Of a DNA stretch of 64,000 nt, positions 1 through 64,000 are shown one piece after another. Positions within the stretch are counted from its first letter, which is position 1, and every line of letters begins with the position of its first letter. The DNA comes from Alphaproteobacteria bacterium (GTDB lineage: Bacteria > Pseudomonadota > Alphaproteobacteria > Micavibrionales > UBA2020): positions 138,308-202,307 of the forward strand of contig JAIXUW010000292.1 in assembly GCA_027483355.1 (NCBI GenBank), given 5' to 3'. A program made the translations under genes and the position numbers. Below the pieces are notes generated by a model that saw only the letters and a list, made by a program, of their open reading frames with translations, was not told the origin of the DNA and did not search any database.

Positions 1-1562
1 ACCATTTTTGCAAGTTTGGCATCGGCGATTGTGAACGTAAGTAGCGCATTGAATTCTTTGCTTTCCACAGCGGGTACGATGATCTGGTTTCTATAATCCA
101 TGAGCCATTTTGGGTATTCCTTAGAACGAAACGCAGCTGCATTGCTTTCCGTCCACTCAAGCGGGACGATTCCGACTCCGGCCTTGGTGCATTCCAGAGT
201 CGCTCTGCTGACCAAGGCAGCGTTGTCGCGCATGATCAAGAATTTGCGAACGTAAAACTGGTCCACGGCTACTTTTAGAGCATGAGTAAAGTCGTTGGCA
301 AATGCGTTCATGTCTTGAACTGCGGCCGCGGACGTTTTCAACGGAATTCCGTACTCTTGAGCGTCTGACATGAGATAGCTCGTGATGCGGTAGTACATGT
401 CTTTACTTGTGCTAATATCGCCAAGTTCTTCAGGTGAAATGAACACAGAGGGCTCGTAGGGCATGGCCGATTGTGACAATTCGGGCATTAGAGCACGTGT
501 CGTGGCTTTCATTCGAGACGCTGACACAATTCCCATTTCGTCAAACGCAGATCCGAGCATTTGAGAGTAACTAGAAACGTTGTCGGCCCAGGCGTCTGAC
601 GACGCGTCAACGCGGTTTTCACAGTGTTCGGAAGTGACAATTGATGTGACAGCAGCCAAATTAGGCGTTACTTCACGCACCATGCTGTTAAACGCTTGAG
701 AATCCATATAGTGCTCCCACCATTCTTTAAACACGGCGGGATGCTCGATGAGCCTGATTTGAAGTTCGACGTCGAGCGCCACAGATCGCATCTGCTCGAC
801 AAGATCCACGGCCTTATACGGTTGGCCTGAATTAGCCGGGATCATTTGCCAAATGCGCATTTCCCCGTCTTTGGGCTCGAGACTCCAGAACTCTGAGAGC
901 GTGTTGTCCGTTTCGCAAATGTTGAAAAACGTTAACAAACTATCAAATGCCGTGATTTGCAGATTTCTCGTCGCTGCCAAAAACCGAATTTGCGTGTTGT
1001 GATCAGGTGCGTCTTGTGCGCTTACTCGGCCTATCATAGTATCGATCGCGGCGTAGTCGAGTATGTAAGAATGACAAAGTCGTGCCTCAAACTCGTCCAA
1101 ATCCGTTTTCGTAGCTCCGCTCAGATAATTGACTTGACCAAGTGTTCTAATCCATTTTCGCATGTTGTCGTCCAATGGCGTCTTTGAAACGTCTCGATCG
1201 TATCGATTGAACACTGTAGAACTCAACTTGTCTCGATGAAACATTTCAAACTCAGCACGGCGAGGCGCCATGGCGATTTCGGGCACACAGCACTTTTTGT
1301 ACACGGTCACGACGGCGAACATGAGTTCAAAGTAGTTTTTCAAATGACCCATGGCTTTTTCGCTCCATGGCACGTCGCGATGAAAGGCGTCTTCGATCAA
1401 AAGCGCCAGAGCGGCGTGCAGCTTCTCGTAACTCGTAACCGTCCATAATATACCACTCCATGCGTCTTCCGTGAGCGGATATTGTGCAATCTGCTCGTAC
1501 GCTTTGCGTCCAACGGCAGCCGAAACCGTGAACGGGATAACCCGTTTCGCGGCAGCTGCCAT
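1..1562 (-). CDS. hypothetical protein, C-terminal part lies beyond the left window edge (520 codons seen)
   Basis: Absent from the ORF track because it runs off the edge. My manual reverse-complement translation from ATG (CAT at 1560-1562, context cgaaaaagATG) is stop-free to nt 1 (MAAAAKRVIPFTVSAAVGRKAYEQ...FTIADAKLAKM). No domain recognised. Confidence 0.8.
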   Translation of the reverse strand, partial: MAAAAKRVIPFTVSAAVGRKAYEQIAQYPLTEDAWSGILWTVTSYEKLHAALALLIEDAFHRDVPWSEKAMGHLKNYFELMFAVVTVYKKCCVPEIAMAPRRAEFEMFHRDKLSSTVFNRYDRDVSKTPLDDNMRKWIRTLGQVNYLSGATKTDLDEFEARLCHSYILDYAAIDTMIGRVSAQDAPDHNTQIRFLAATRNLQITAFDSLLTFFNICETDNTLSEFWSLEPKDGEMRIWQMIPANSGQPYKAVDLVEQMRSVALDVELQIRLIEHPAVFKEWWEHYMDSQAFNSMVREVTPNLAAVTSIVTSEHCENRVDASSDAWADNVSSYSQMLGSAFDEMGIVSASRMKATTRALMPELSQSAMPYEPSVFISPEELGDISTSKDMYYRITSYLMSDAQEYGIPLKTSAAAVQDMNAFANDFTHALKVAVDQFYVRKFLIMRDNAALVSRATLECTKAGVGIVPLEWTESNAAAFRSKEYPKWLMDYRNQIIVPAVESKEFNALLTFTIADAKLAKM

Positions 1563-1669
1563 CTTTTTCGATCCGAAATTAATGAATTCACGTTTTCTAG
1601 AAACAGTCGAGAAAAAGGACTCGTAGTTTTATTTTCGAATCCTCTTTGACAGCGTTTTTTTTAAGAGTC

Positions 1670-2956
1670 ATGGAGCCAGGCTATCTCCTCGACACAAGTC
1701 TGTTAGAGAACGCAACCCCGTTCGATCAATTGTTGAGCCAGTTTCAGGATTTGGAAATACAATACGCGTTCAAGTCGAGCGAAAATGCCGCAATCGACAA
1801 GCTATTCGACGTGCCTGCCGACATTGAAGCCGAAATGGATCAAAGGAAACGAGTTTCTAAACTGGTCTATTTGGAAAACATTACAGACTTTCAGTTCGAG
1901 GATTTTCTCGAATATCTTTACAAGAAGAAAAACGGCGATCGCAGATTGGTCTCGCTTTCCATGTGGATAAACGCAAGAGGCGCTGTACTTTCACCCGCCG
2001 TGCACAGCTTGGACAAACGGTCTATTGACGCGATTTGTGACCGCGTTGTTAAAACGTACGGCGAGTCTTTCACGGAGCCTCATTTGGAAAGATCCGATCT
2101 GGAGTGGATTGTCAAGCTGGCGCTCCTCGTAGATCTCGGACAAAATGCCACCACACAGTTCAGATCTTCTGGTCTAAGTGAACAAGATAAGAATCCGCAT
2201 ATTCTAGAGACGTTGGAACAAGCGTGTAACTTTTTCACGTACCACATCAAAGGGGCTGCAAAGGCGTTGCACAGAGTTGTGTCAACGTCTGCCGACTACG
2301 CAGAGCCCACCGTCGTGGATATTCATTGCGGCACTCCGTTATTCGCGCTCATAACCGCGTATTTGTTTGACGCGGACGCGAGACTGCTCTGCAGTTCCGT
2401 CAGGAATGAAAGCCGCAACGCTTCAGTTGTCTATTGCATGCTAATATTGACCTTTTTGGATTGCGTAGAACAACTACTGCCACGCATTCCATTGACGCAA
2501 GTCAAAGATTATTCCTTTGTTGAAATGCTAGCAGCGGAACTCGCTACAAATGGCAAACAGCCCTGCAAAGGTGCCACGATGCCCAGTATGATTAATGTTC
2601 TGAAACGAGCGCCGTATTTGATAAGCAGCAAAAAGATTCCGATTATTCCAAACGCGCCGCTTTTCCATCTGCCCACGACGGCCGCTGCGCTGGCGCTTAG
2701 AAATCTTAGTGTCAGAGAGTCGCTCGCACAAAAGGTGCTCATGTGCCCTTTTCCCGATTCGGCGTGCAAGAAATATGTAACTCCAACGTCGGTGGAGAAA
2801 ATTGAGGGCGTTGAAATCATTCGCAGAAAGGGCAACCAAAATATGGAAGAAGTGTTTGTCTGGCACCCAACTGTGAAAAAGTGGGTCACTGGCATTATGA
2901 CCTGTTCAAAAGATTTGTATATCAATGTCGTGTTTGGAGTTTTCCCGAAACAATAG
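1670..2956 (+). CDS. LRR-like paralog family member A (428 aa)
   Basis: Track ORF 1646..2956 begins at TTG; the first ATG is at 1670 (MEPGYLLD). Two colinear motifs are shared with 16071..17330: ENITDFQFEDFLEYL vs ENFTTLRFEYFLEFL, and YVTPTSVEKIEGVEIIRRK vs YVSPGAVPGKISVVEIFRRK. Confidence 0.8.
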   Translation: MEPGYLLDTSLLENATPFDQLLSQFQDLEIQYAFKSSENAAIDKLFDVPADIEAEMDQRKRVSKLVYLENITDFQFEDFLEYLYKKKNGDRRLVSLSMWINARGAVLSPAVHSLDKRSIDAICDRVVKTYGESFTEPHLERSDLEWIVKLALLVDLGQNATTQFRSSGLSEQDKNPHILETLEQACNFFTYHIKGAAKALHRVVSTSADYAEPTVVDIHCGTPLFALITAYLFDADARLLCSSVRNESRNASVVYCMLILTFLDCVEQLLPRIPLTQVKDYSFVEMLAAELATNGKQPCKGATMPSMINVLKRAPYLISSKKIPIIPNAPLFHLPTTAAALALRNLSVRESLAQKVLMCPFPDSACKKYVTPTSVEKIEGVEIIRRKGNQNMEEVFVWHPTVKKWVTGIMTCSKDLYINVVFGVFPKQ

Positions 2957-63387: not shown

Positions 63388-63634
63388 TTTTAGACTCAAC
63401 ACCACTCAAAAAGGTATTTAAACGCTTGCGGAGAACAGTTAAGCCAGACACCTGCGCGGCAACCGCAGATTTATTAACTTCGGGTTTTAAGGCGCGTGGG
63501 TTTTTTCAGGCCAACAAAAATTCTCGGAGGGGTTTAATAAACTTTTTGTTTCTCTTTCCCCGCATACCTCTATTTTTTCCCCTCTTCGTTTTTTTTATAA
63601 CGAATTAGGACTGCTGACTGGCCGAGAAAAAAAA

Positions 63635-64000
63635 ATGTGGGCACAGACGCTGGCAAGCCATGTGGTGCCGAGTCCACTGCTGCAATGTCTCTTCTACGGC
63701 TTCGTGAAGCTGTGCATGGTGGACTTTGTGTACAAAGACTTTGATAACAAAGATGAATACATGCTTGACGTACCTGTGTACATGCTATTGCAGGCACTTC
63801 ACCTGAGCCTGTTTTCTGTGGGATTCTTCTTTTACGATGCCGAAAACGCGGCAGCCATGTTTCTGCTCATAGGTCTATCCAGATGCAGCAAACTGTTATC
63901 TCTTTTCATTCGCTTCAGAAAACATAATAAAGTGCTGCGAATAGAACAACAGTTGATTGATCACGGTCGACTGAATCGCAAACCAAGCCGAACCGAAGCC
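63635..64000 (+). CDS. hypothetical membrane protein, C-terminal part beyond the right window edge (122 codons seen)
   Basis: Absent from the track because it is truncated. gagaaaaaaaaaATG start. My translation (MWAQTLASHVVPSPLLQCLFYGFVKLCMVDF...LHLSLFSVGFFFY..AAMFLLIGL...) is stop-free to nt 64000. Confidence 0.65.
   Translation, partial: MWAQTLASHVVPSPLLQCLFYGFVKLCMVDFVYKDFDNKDEYMLDVPVYMLLQALHLSLFSVGFFFYDAENAAAMFLLIGLSRCSKLLSLFIRFRKHNKVLRIEQQLIDHGRLNRKPSRTEA

What the first reader, a model, noticed from the sequence alone, without database searches (positions are those of the whole stretch)
1..64000. Two start-codon contexts: A-run leaders for intronless genes versus CCATGG for intron-containing genes
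Most intronless genes have an A-run directly before the ATG. Examples: aaaaaaaaATG at 16071, gaaaaaaaATG at 45986, ataaaaaaatATG at 37852, aaaaaaaaaaagaATG at 23770(-), cacaaaaaaATG at 22263(-), gagaaaaaaaaaATG at 63635, cccaaaaaATG at 42350, and cgaaaaagATG at 1562(-). The genes with inferred introns instead start in Kozak-like contexts: aaccATGGcc at 12659, tagccATGGcc at 55048(-), and taccATGGac at 58744. This suggests two gene populations with different expression logic or evolutionary origin, namely a viral core versus host-derived or host-like genes.
Basis: seen in the sequence. Interest (0 to 1): 0.55.

Follow-up and report, generated by a model that had tools for sequence, protein, structure and literature searches.

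The report
A-rich gene starts, few spliced genes
In this stretch of a virus-like genome, many genes have a run of A's just before the start codon and a handful carry real introns, but the evidence does not establish two separate start-codon systems, so the finding is real in part and mostly ordinary.

Summary
All eleven quoted start contexts are in the sequence. A-runs abutting the ATG are strongly enriched at gene starts. They occur at 15 of 38-39 intronless genes against 3.8% of all ATGs (p=6e-12). That is a minority, not "most", and the feature is graded: A is 65% at -3 and 46% over -10..-1.

The introns are real. Gene B's are confirmed by an intronless homolog. Gene C's 9-nt first exon and 297-nt intron recur in a distant ortholog. 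Gene A's are supported by coding statistics.

I found two more probable intron genes, D and E. Neither starts at CCATGG. No intron gene has an A-run, but 0/5 against 15/38 gives p=0.14. CCATGG in 3/5 against 0/38 is nominally significant but post hoc. It is also not conserved: C's ortholog lacks it, and in that relative CCATGG sits on two intronless genes.

The closest relative has lost the A-run at 3 of 4 orthologous starts. Codon usage does not separate the two classes. B is a cellular-type methyltransferase, but C is a virus-specific orphan.

What does separate the intron genes is long 5' flanks (239-979 nt against a median of 133 nt) and clustering in a 7.9-kb variable island.

Verdict: an A-rich, Kozak-like leader context in a nuclear-expressed large DNA virus-like genome. 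The two-class reading is unproven.

The parts
1560..1574 (-). A-run leader: cgaaaaagATG (gene 1-1562)
10953..10967 (+). A-run leader: gaacaaaatATG
16059..16073 (+). A-run leader: gtaaaaaaaaATG
22261..22275 (-). A-run leader: cacaaaaaaATG
23768..23782 (-). A-run leader: aaaaaaaaaaagaATG
27434..27448 (+). A-run leader: cttaaaatATG
31835..31849 (-). A-run leader: acccaaaaATG
32904..32918 (-). A-run leader: agaaaaatcgATG
33084..33098 (+). A-run leader: cgaaaaagaATG
37840..37854 (+). A-run leader: ataaaaaaatATG
42338..42352 (+). A-run leader: cccaaaaaATG (RabGAP-TBC gene). The L001 ortholog has ggattacATG.
45974..45988 (+). A-run leader: cgaaaaaaaATG. The L001 ortholog has tctctaatATG.
55276..55290 (+). 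A-run leader: cgaaaacaATG
63385..63399 (-). A-run leader: tctaaaaATG. The L001 ortholog keeps cccaaaaaATG.
63623..63637 (+). A-run leader: gagaaaaaaaaATG. The L001 ortholog has ttcagaatATG.
12659..13449 (+). Gene A, 213 aa, orphan. Start context aaccATGGcc. Exons 12659-12703, 12778-12852, 12928-13449. Introns 12704-12777 (74 nt) and 12853-12927 (75 nt), both with GTGCG donors.
   Evidence: Hexamer score is +0.49 per codon over the first 62 spliced codons and negative in the introns.
53831..55048 (-). Gene B, 310 aa, membrane-anchored SAM methyltransferase of cellular type. Start context agccATGGcc. Introns 54872-54944 (73 nt), 54668-54735 (68 nt, GC-AG), 54478-54547 (70 nt) and 54136-54209 (74 nt).
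   Evidence: The 308-aa homolog P0005 covers 100% of the query. tblastx against the intronless L002 breaks exactly at the exon ends. The protein alignment runs across the junctions.
58744..61623 (+). Gene C, 860 aa, virus-specific orphan. Start context taccATGGac. Exon 1 is 58744-58752 (9 nt). The intron is 58753-59049 (297 nt, GTACGC donor). Exon 2 is 59050-61623.
   Evidence: The ATG-less stretch 59050-59319 scores as coding. The L007 ortholog has ATG+12 nt, a GTACGT donor and an intron of exactly 297 nt, in frame.
55974..57764 (-). Gene D (new here), about 570 aa, orphan. Start context agaagcATGtct. Exon 1 is 57686-57764. The intron is 57608-57685 (78 nt, GTGCGC donor, CTCAC branch, GTAG acceptor). 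Exon 2 is 55974-57607.
   Evidence: Exon 1 hexamer score is +0.55 per codon. No comparative confirmation.
19761..21107 (+). Gene E (new here, tentative). Start context ctctgatATGGaa. Exon 1 is 19761-19769 (9 nt). The intron is 19770-19922 (153 nt, GTACGT donor, CTGAC branch, TTTCAG acceptor). Exon 2 is 19923-21107.
   Evidence: The 50 ATG-less codons upstream of 20046 score as coding; only this gene and C show that.
53765..61698 (.). Variable island holding genes B, 55288-55857, D and C. In relative L001 the flanking orthologs are 146 nt apart.

Best explanation
The window comes from a gene-dense, largely orphan-gene, virus-like genome. Its genes are probably transcribed and processed by the host nuclear machinery.

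The A-run is the extreme end of a graded, A-rich, Kozak-like start context, that is, a short unstructured leader abutting the AUG. Purine at -3 and a frequent G at +4 are common to all genes. It favours initiation on short 5' leaders. It is a habit of this lineage, not a conserved regulatory element.

The five intron-bearing genes use the same core context (R at -3 in 5/5, G at +4 in 4/5) without the A homopolymer. They form a small, architecturally distinct accessory set with long 5' flanks and 5'-proximal introns, mostly in a variable island. The shared CCATGG of three of them is most likely a small-number coincidence.

Shown: the enrichment, position-locking and strand-specificity of the A-run, the introns, the lack of conservation, and the flank-length difference.

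Inferred: nuclear expression, the role in translation, and coincidence as the reason for CCATGG.
For: A-run at the start:
- Enrichment is about 10-fold, p=6e-12.
- It abuts the ATG at distance 0-3 nt.
- It is strand-specific: A 46% and T 18% over -10..-1, with a T-rich zone at -50..-21.
- R at -3 in 33/40 genes and G at +4 in 17/40.
- The A, B and C starts score mid-range on the intronless weight matrix.

Not explained by neighbours' 3' ends: 11 of 15 A-run genes face a divergent neighbour.

Not conserved:
- L001 orthologs of 42350, 45986 and 63635 lack the run. L001 has it at 1/13 genes and L007 at 0/13.
- CCATGG is absent at C's ortholog and present on two intronless L007 genes.
- D and E lack CCATGG.

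No difference in codon usage or GC3.

Nuclear processing:
- Spliceosomal introns are verified for B and C.
- TATA-like elements lie at -35 to -100.
- TGTA[AC] lies within 70 nt after the stop in 24/41 genes, against 14% expected.
Against: - None of the 5 intron genes has an A-run.
- 3 of 5 share CCATGG, which no intronless gene has (nominal p about 3e-4 to 8e-4).
- Genes A and B share 13 of 14 positions, TTA[A/G]CCATGGCCG.
- Intron genes have significantly longer 5' flanks, so a real class difference in expression is not excluded.
- No transcript, TSS or translation data were available, so the translational role of the A-run is inferred from general knowledge of start contexts.
- Only 64 kb of a contig of about 292 kb was examined.
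Confidence: 0.55

Rival explanations
1. There are two gene populations: intronless viral genes with A-run leaders, and host-derived or host-like genes that kept host features (introns, an RCCATGG Kozak context, long 5' flanks).
For: - B is a cellular-type methyltransferase.
- CCATGG occurs in 3/5 intron genes against 0/38 intronless genes.
- No intron gene has an A-run.
- 5' flanks are longer, p=4e-4.
- Three intron genes lie in an island missing from the syntenic site in L001.
Against: - C is a virus-specific orphan whose intron is conserved in a distant virus-like relative.
- A and D have no Pfam match, and C has no Pfam or PDB match.
- Codon usage and GC3 cannot be told apart.
- B's closest homolog and a diatom homolog are intronless.
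- CCATGG is absent at C's ortholog and present on intronless genes of L007.
- D and E lack CCATGG.
Confidence: 0.2
2. The A-run is a transcriptional element. It could be an initiator or a slippage site that yields very short or poly(A) 5' leaders, as in poxvirus late genes. It would mark a temporal class of intronless genes, while spliced genes belong to another class with conventional leaders.
For: - Where TATA-like boxes lie at -35 to -45 (genes 6027(-), 22953(-), 63387(-), 63635), a start about 30 nt downstream would fall in or next to the A-run.
- A-run genes are preferentially at divergent promoters, 11/15 against 8/23, p=0.045.
Against: - The poxvirus-type TAAATG initiator is seen at about 1 of 39 starts (36718).
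- No virus RNA polymerase or any transcription gene was detected in the window.
- The runs are lost in orthologs of a relative with about 70% amino-acid identity, while the genes persist.
- The distance to the ATG is fixed at 0-3 nt, which fits a start-codon context better than a TSS element.
Confidence: 0.15
3. The A-runs have no function. They are a by-product of AT-rich, homopolymer-prone intergenic DNA, or of 3'-end signals of neighbouring genes.
For: - The runs are poorly conserved.
- The genome carries other homopolymer and simple tracts: C12 at 31898-31909 and (GC)n at 39892-39909.
Against: - Strand asymmetry is strong (A 46% against T 18% over -10..-1), and the run is position-locked to the ATG.
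- 11 of 15 lie in divergent spacers where no upstream gene ends.
Confidence: 0.07

Closest known systems
A-rich Kozak-type start contexts of yeasts, plants, insects and many protists (own knowledge, not tested here)
   Same: Purine (mostly A) at -3, A-rich -1..-6, frequent G at +4, and a signal locked to the AUG.
   Different: Here a large minority of genes carry true homopolymers of 5-11 A. The habit is specific to this genome: relatives L001 and L007 have 1/13 and 0/13.
Poxvirus late/intermediate 5' poly(A) leaders from the TAAAT(G) initiator (own knowledge)
   Same: An A tract directly before the AUG of intronless viral genes. If transcribed, such a leader is unstructured.
   Different: There is no TAAATG consensus, no viral transcription genes in the window, and spliceosomal introns indicate nuclear expression. 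Slippage is untested.
Intron-rich mirusviruses (Okeanovirales/Styxvirales; Medvedeva et al. 2025, PMC12768974)
   Same: - Marine relatives.
- About 11-14% of genes have any Pfam hit; the paper reports 13-14%.
- GT-AG introns of about 70-80 nt.
- CTCAC-type branch points, which fit the reported CYSAC.
- About 0.14 introns per kb; the paper reports 0.18-0.2.
   Different: - No hallmark morphogenesis gene was identified in the window.
- That paper reports introns enriched in virion genes. Here one intron gene is a cellular-type enzyme and the rest are orphans.
- The paper says nothing about start contexts.
Spliceosomal introns in pandoraviruses, some chloroviruses and thraustochytrid 'skiaviruses' (as cited in PMC12768974 and bioRxiv 10.64898/2026.07.28.741200)
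   Same: Large DNA viruses with a nuclear phase that carry a few spliced genes among mostly intronless ones.
   Different: No sequence relationship was shown. NCLDV hallmark genes were not found in the window.

Membership tests
Kozak-type / A-rich translation start context | Purine at -3 | tested here: met
   33/40 intronless starts (26 of them A) and 5/5 intron-gene starts.
Kozak-type / A-rich translation start context | G at +4 | tested here: inconclusive
   17/40 intronless starts (42%, against about 24% base frequency) and 4/5 intron genes.
Kozak-type / A-rich translation start context | Signal position-locked to the AUG and strand-specific | tested here: met
   Runs end 0-3 nt before the ATG. 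Over -10..-1, A is 46% and T 18%.
Kozak-type / A-rich translation start context | Measurable effect on initiation efficiency | not testable with these tools
   Needs reporter assays or ribosome profiling.
Poxvirus-like poly(A) leader / TAAAT initiator | TAAATG at the start of late genes | tested here: not met
   About 1 of 39 starts (36718: ggtaaATG).
Poxvirus-like poly(A) leader / TAAAT initiator | Transcription starts in the A tract, with non-templated A addition | not testable with these tools
   No transcript data.
U2-type spliceosomal introns | GT(GC)-AG boundaries with a consensus donor | tested here: met
   9 introns. Donors are GTGCGC, GTGCGT, GTATGT, GCATGT, GTGTGT, GTACGC (twice), GTGCGC and GTACGT. 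Eight of the nine acceptors are YAG; B intron 2 ends in AAG.
U2-type spliceosomal introns | Branch-point-like CTNAC 13-35 nt upstream of the acceptor, and a narrow length class | tested here: met
   CTCAC, CTAAC, CTTAC and CTGAC are present. 7 of 9 introns are 68-78 nt. The two first introns after micro-exons are 153 and 297 nt.
U2-type spliceosomal introns | Removal restores a protein collinear with intronless homologs | tested here: met
   Gene B against L002/P0005 and 8 homologs. Gene C's intron position and length are conserved in L007. A, D and E are supported by statistics only.
Mirusviricota (intron-rich orders) | HK97-fold MCP, triplex, portal and terminase module | not tested
   - No Pfam or PDB sequence match for any large protein.
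- The single-sequence AlphaFold model of gene D was unusable, pLDDT 40.
- The contig accessions were not found in the paper's supplements.
Mirusviricota (intron-rich orders) | Lack of replication/transcription genes together with many spliceosomal introns | tested here: inconclusive
   None was detected in 64 kb, and introns are present, but only a fifth of the contig was seen.
Host-derived (horizontally acquired cellular) gene | Closest relatives are cellular proteins | tested here: met
   Met for B only: 283 hits, including fungal 'hard-surface induced protein 5' methyltransferases and diatoms. Not met for C, which has 1 homolog cluster, on a virus-like contig.
Host-derived (horizontally acquired cellular) gene | Introns shared with cellular homologs, or deviant codon usage | tested here: not met
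   P0005/L002 and the diatom P0036/L006 are intronless. Codon-usage fit and GC3 of A-D lie within the range of the other genes.

The most novel reading that the evidence does not exclude
One nuclear large DNA virus runs two gene architectures side by side.
- Compact intronless genes whose mRNAs carry homopolymeric A leaders. These might compensate for the lack of splicing-dependent export or translation enhancement, or allow cap-factor-independent initiation as poxvirus poly(A) leaders do.
- 'Eukaryote-style' genes with long 5' flanks, a 5'-proximal intron (in two cases after a 9-nt first exon) and RCCATGG contexts.
The two would be separately regulated expression classes.
Probability: 0.15. 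Interest if true: 0.55.

Novelty: new member of a known kind. Interest (0 to 1): 0.3.

Why it matters
If the A-run leader and the spliced-gene architecture were shown to be two regulated classes, this would be a simple sequence handle on how an uncultured nuclear virus of marine protists divides its genes between host-like and virus-specific expression routes. It would also improve gene calling. Prokaryote-style callers miss micro-exons such as the 9-nt first exon of gene C.

As it stands, the practical value is modest:
- The A-rich context helps to pick true starts in this genome.
- The window supplies five curated intron-bearing gene models.
- It shows that start contexts drift quickly between related viruses.

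Tried and rejected
- Identifying the genome. Pfam on about 40 proteins gave only SET, BTB (weak), RabGAP-TBC, RING and a weak methyltransferase match. PDB sequence searches found nothing. There were no tRNAs or Rfam families. IMG/VR scans with the 1503-aa protein and with gene C found nothing. The one metagenome scan gave a single 6.5-kb Tara contig. Accessions were not found in papers or supplements.\n- Walking out of the window. Two exact-protein look-ups found nothing on record. Exhaustive enumeration of 5' models for gene C was not decisive, until the ortholog in L007 settled it.\n- Introner hypothesis: the introns are not alike, apart from about 30 nt shared by A's two introns.\n- Neighbours' 3'-end signals as the source of A-runs: rejected, because 11 of 15 lie in divergent spacers.\n- Downstream ATGs with A-runs as the 'true' starts of genes without a run: only one case, at 6027(-).\n- A CCATGG motif extended to cTTGTTaaCCATGGac at 5895(-) is an internal Met of a continuous ORF.\n- The structure of gene D came out at pLDDT 40 and was not searched.\n- The conserved non-coding element has no Rfam hit and no structure.
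Full report
**What the window is.** The 64-kb window is 48% G+C and densely packed with ATG-initiated ORFs on both strands. Of about 44 gene products, only five have any Pfam match: SET, a weak BTB, RabGAP-TBC, RING and a weak Methyltransf_24. There are no tRNAs and no Rfam families.

The 1535-aa ORF at 48664-53271 is 100% identical, over 98% of its length, to a protein called on a 292,368-bp NCBI contig. Its only relatives (about 70% identity) are on marine metagenome contigs: a 208-kb ENA contig (locus L001) and a Tara contig. 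Two Logan assemblies contain pieces identical to the window, so the sequence is not an assembly oddity.

I treat it as an unclassified large DNA virus-like genome. Resemblance to the intron-rich mirusvirus orders (PMC12768974) is a lead only. No hallmark gene could be tested.

**Check of the observation.** All eleven quoted contexts are correct. I tabulated the first ATG of each non-overlapping ORF.
- An A-run of at least 4 nt ending within 3 nt of the ATG occurs at 15 of 39 intronless genes. Ten of these runs are at least 5 nt. It occurs at 3.8% of all 2055 ATGs (p=6e-12).
- Position by position, A is 65% at -3, 57% at -4 and 53% at -1. G is 42% at +4.
- Over -10..-1, A is 46% and T 18%. A T-rich zone lies at -50..-21.

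So the signal is real, strand-specific and locked to the start codon. It is also graded, and about 60% of intronless genes lack a run. 'Most' is an overstatement built from the eight best examples.

**The introns.**
- *Gene B* (53831-55048, minus strand) has four introns of 68-74 nt, one of them GC-AG. The spliced 310-aa protein matches a 308-aa protein over 100% of its length, plus 282 further SAM-methyltransferase homologs. tblastx against the intronless homolog locus L002 breaks exactly at the exon ends. A multiple alignment runs straight across the junctions and shares the N-terminal membrane anchor, which fixes the ATG at 55048.
- *Gene A* (12659-13449) has two introns of 74 and 75 nt with GTGCG donors. 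The first 62 spliced codons score +0.49 per codon on a hexamer model that did not include the gene. The introns score negative.
- *Gene C* looked doubtful: a 9-nt first exon and a 297-nt intron. However, the 90 ATG-less codons before 59320 score as coding. The only homolog among 1.84 billion representatives (31% identity, locus L007 from NCBI assembly GCA_006365035.1) has the same layout. That layout is ATG plus 12 nt, a GTACGT donor, an intron of exactly 297 nt and an in-frame acceptor.

**Two further intron genes.** A frame-aware search upstream of every gene found two more candidates.
- *Gene D* (55974-57764, minus) has a 78-nt intron with a GTGCGC donor, CTCAC branch and GTAG acceptor. Its first exon scores +0.55 per codon.
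- *Gene E* is more tentative. It has ATGGAAAAC|GTACGT, a 153-nt intron, and then the ORF that continues to 21107.

Their start contexts are agaagcATGtct and ctctgatATGGaa: neither an A-run nor CCATGG.

**Is start context tied to introns?**
- A-run: 0/5 intron genes against 15/38 intronless genes, Fisher p=0.14. Against intronless genes with spacers of at least 60 nt, p=0.13.
- CCATGG: 3/4 against 0/39 gives p=3e-4. With E it is 3/5 against 0/38, about 8e-4 by my arithmetic. The pattern was chosen after looking at the data. CCATGG is also 2.3-fold over-represented in the window generally, at 24 sites against 10.5 expected.
- The A, B and C starts score mid-range on a leave-one-out weight matrix of intronless starts. 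All five intron genes have a purine at -3.

**Comparative data argue against a conserved dichotomy.**
- In L001, the orthologs of the A-run genes 42350, 45986 and 63635 have ggattacATG, tctctaatATG and ttcagaatATG. Only the ortholog of 63387(-) keeps the run. Overall 1 of 13 L001 genes has one.
- In L007, none of 13 genes has an A-run.
- Two intronless L007 genes start at CCATGG, and C's ortholog starts at catattATGagc.

**Origin of the intron genes.** B is of cellular type. Its nearest homolog and a diatom homolog are intronless, so the introns were not demonstrably imported with the gene. C is virus-specific. A and D have no Pfam match, and C has no Pfam or PDB match. Codon-usage fit and GC3 of A-D fall inside the spread of the other 39 genes. 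'Viral core versus host-derived' therefore holds for one gene out of five at most.

**What does distinguish the intron genes.**
- Their upstream spacers are 239, 355, 500, 979 and 979 nt. Intronless genes have a median of 133 nt and a maximum of 261 nt (p=4e-4; C and D share one spacer).
- Their first intron lies 9-104 nt after the ATG.
- B, D and C lie together in 53.8-61.7 kb. This block is absent from the syntenic site of L001, where the flanking orthologs are 146 nt apart.
- Among intronless genes, A-runs are commoner at divergent promoters: 11 of 15 genes with a run against 8 of 23 without, p=0.045. This also rules out neighbours' 3'-end signals as their source.

**Most likely mechanism.** Genes appear to use host nuclear machinery.
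- Spliceosomal introns are present.
- TATA-like boxes lie at -35 to -100, followed by a T-rich zone.
- A TGTA[AC] element lies within 70 nt after the stop in 24 of 41 genes, against 14% expected.

Leaders must be short. From general knowledge of scanning initiation (not tested here), an A-rich, unstructured stretch with A at -3 abutting the AUG is a favourable start context. The homopolymers would be its extreme, fast-evolving form in this lineage. The intron genes use the same core context without the homopolymer.

I put this explanation at about 0.55. An initiator or poly(A)-leader model, with a poxvirus analogy but no TAAATG consensus, is at about 0.15. A non-functional by-product is at about 0.07.

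**Novelty and score.** A-rich start contexts and spliced genes in nuclear large DNA viruses are both known kinds of thing. This is a new instance in an uncharacterised lineage. The proposed link between the two is unproven on 5 against 38 genes. Interest is 0.3.

The most novel reading still open is two co-existing gene architectures that serve as separate expression classes. It has a probability of about 0.15. It could be decided by a whole-contig tabulation with RNA-supported models and by 5'-end mapping.

Noticed in passing
window 53765-61698; L001 15103-15249: A 7.9-kb block (genes B, 55288-55857, D and C) is absent at the syntenic position of the closest relative, where the flanking orthologs are 146 nt apart. 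It holds 3 of the 5 intron-bearing genes.
   Followed up: partly
window 58744-59049; L007 9569-9880: Gene C and its 31%-identical ortholog both have a micro first exon (9 and 15 nt), a GTACG donor and a first intron of exactly 297 nt, although the intron sequences barely align. This suggests a constraint on the intron.
   Followed up: partly
window 19511-19585; L007 9662-9715: A single-copy conserved non-coding element: TTTTGATCGGCGGAT...CTACnATnGTTTT...GAAATTGAATT. It lies upstream of gene E in the window and inside the first intron of C's ortholog in L007. It has no Rfam hit and no conserved RNA structure.
   Followed up: partly
window 58140-58455: A cluster of direct and inverted copies of AACGTAACGTAAC: 9 copies with up to 2 mismatches, against 1.35 expected in the whole window. 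It sits in the 979-nt spacer between the divergent genes D and C. It could be an origin or a factor-binding array.
   Followed up: partly
window, 3' flanks of genes (e.g. 2985-2992, 29392-29397, 32446-32451, 53287-53292, 61651-61656): TGTA[AC], often as the palindrome TGTACA in convergent spacers, lies within 70 nt after the stop in 24 of 41 genes, against 14% expected. This looks like a UGUAA-type polyadenylation signal.
   Followed up: partly
window 54668-54735 (-): The second intron of gene B is a GC-AG intron (GCATGT donor) with two CTAAC branch-like motifs.
   Followed up: no
window, 24 sites (e.g. 1268, 10278, 33349, 42618, 45543): CCATGG is 2.3-fold over-represented in the window as a whole (24 sites against 10.5 expected; 0 of 100 shuffles reach 24). 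Most sites are at internal in-frame Met codons.
   Followed up: no
window 17331-18330 and 19406-19760: Unusually long stretches with no convincing coding potential in an otherwise compact genome. A 31-codon ORF with an A-run start (gcgaaaaaaATGG at 19485) lies in the second one. It could be an alternative first exon of gene E.
   Followed up: partly
window 31898-31909 and 39892-39909: A C12 homopolymer in the divergent spacer 31837/31979, and an 18-nt (GC)n tract just after the stop of gene 38864-39880.
   Followed up: no
window 3568-3571 and 36718-36721: ATGA stop/start overlaps between tandem genes, and spacers of 11-14 nt at 42338/42350 and 48649/48664. These imply promoters inside upstream genes, or nested/polycistronic transcripts.
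   Followed up: no
window 12645-12672 and 55035-55062 (-): The starts of genes A and B share 13 of 14 positions, TTA[A/G]CCATGGCCG. This is unexplained.
   Followed up: no
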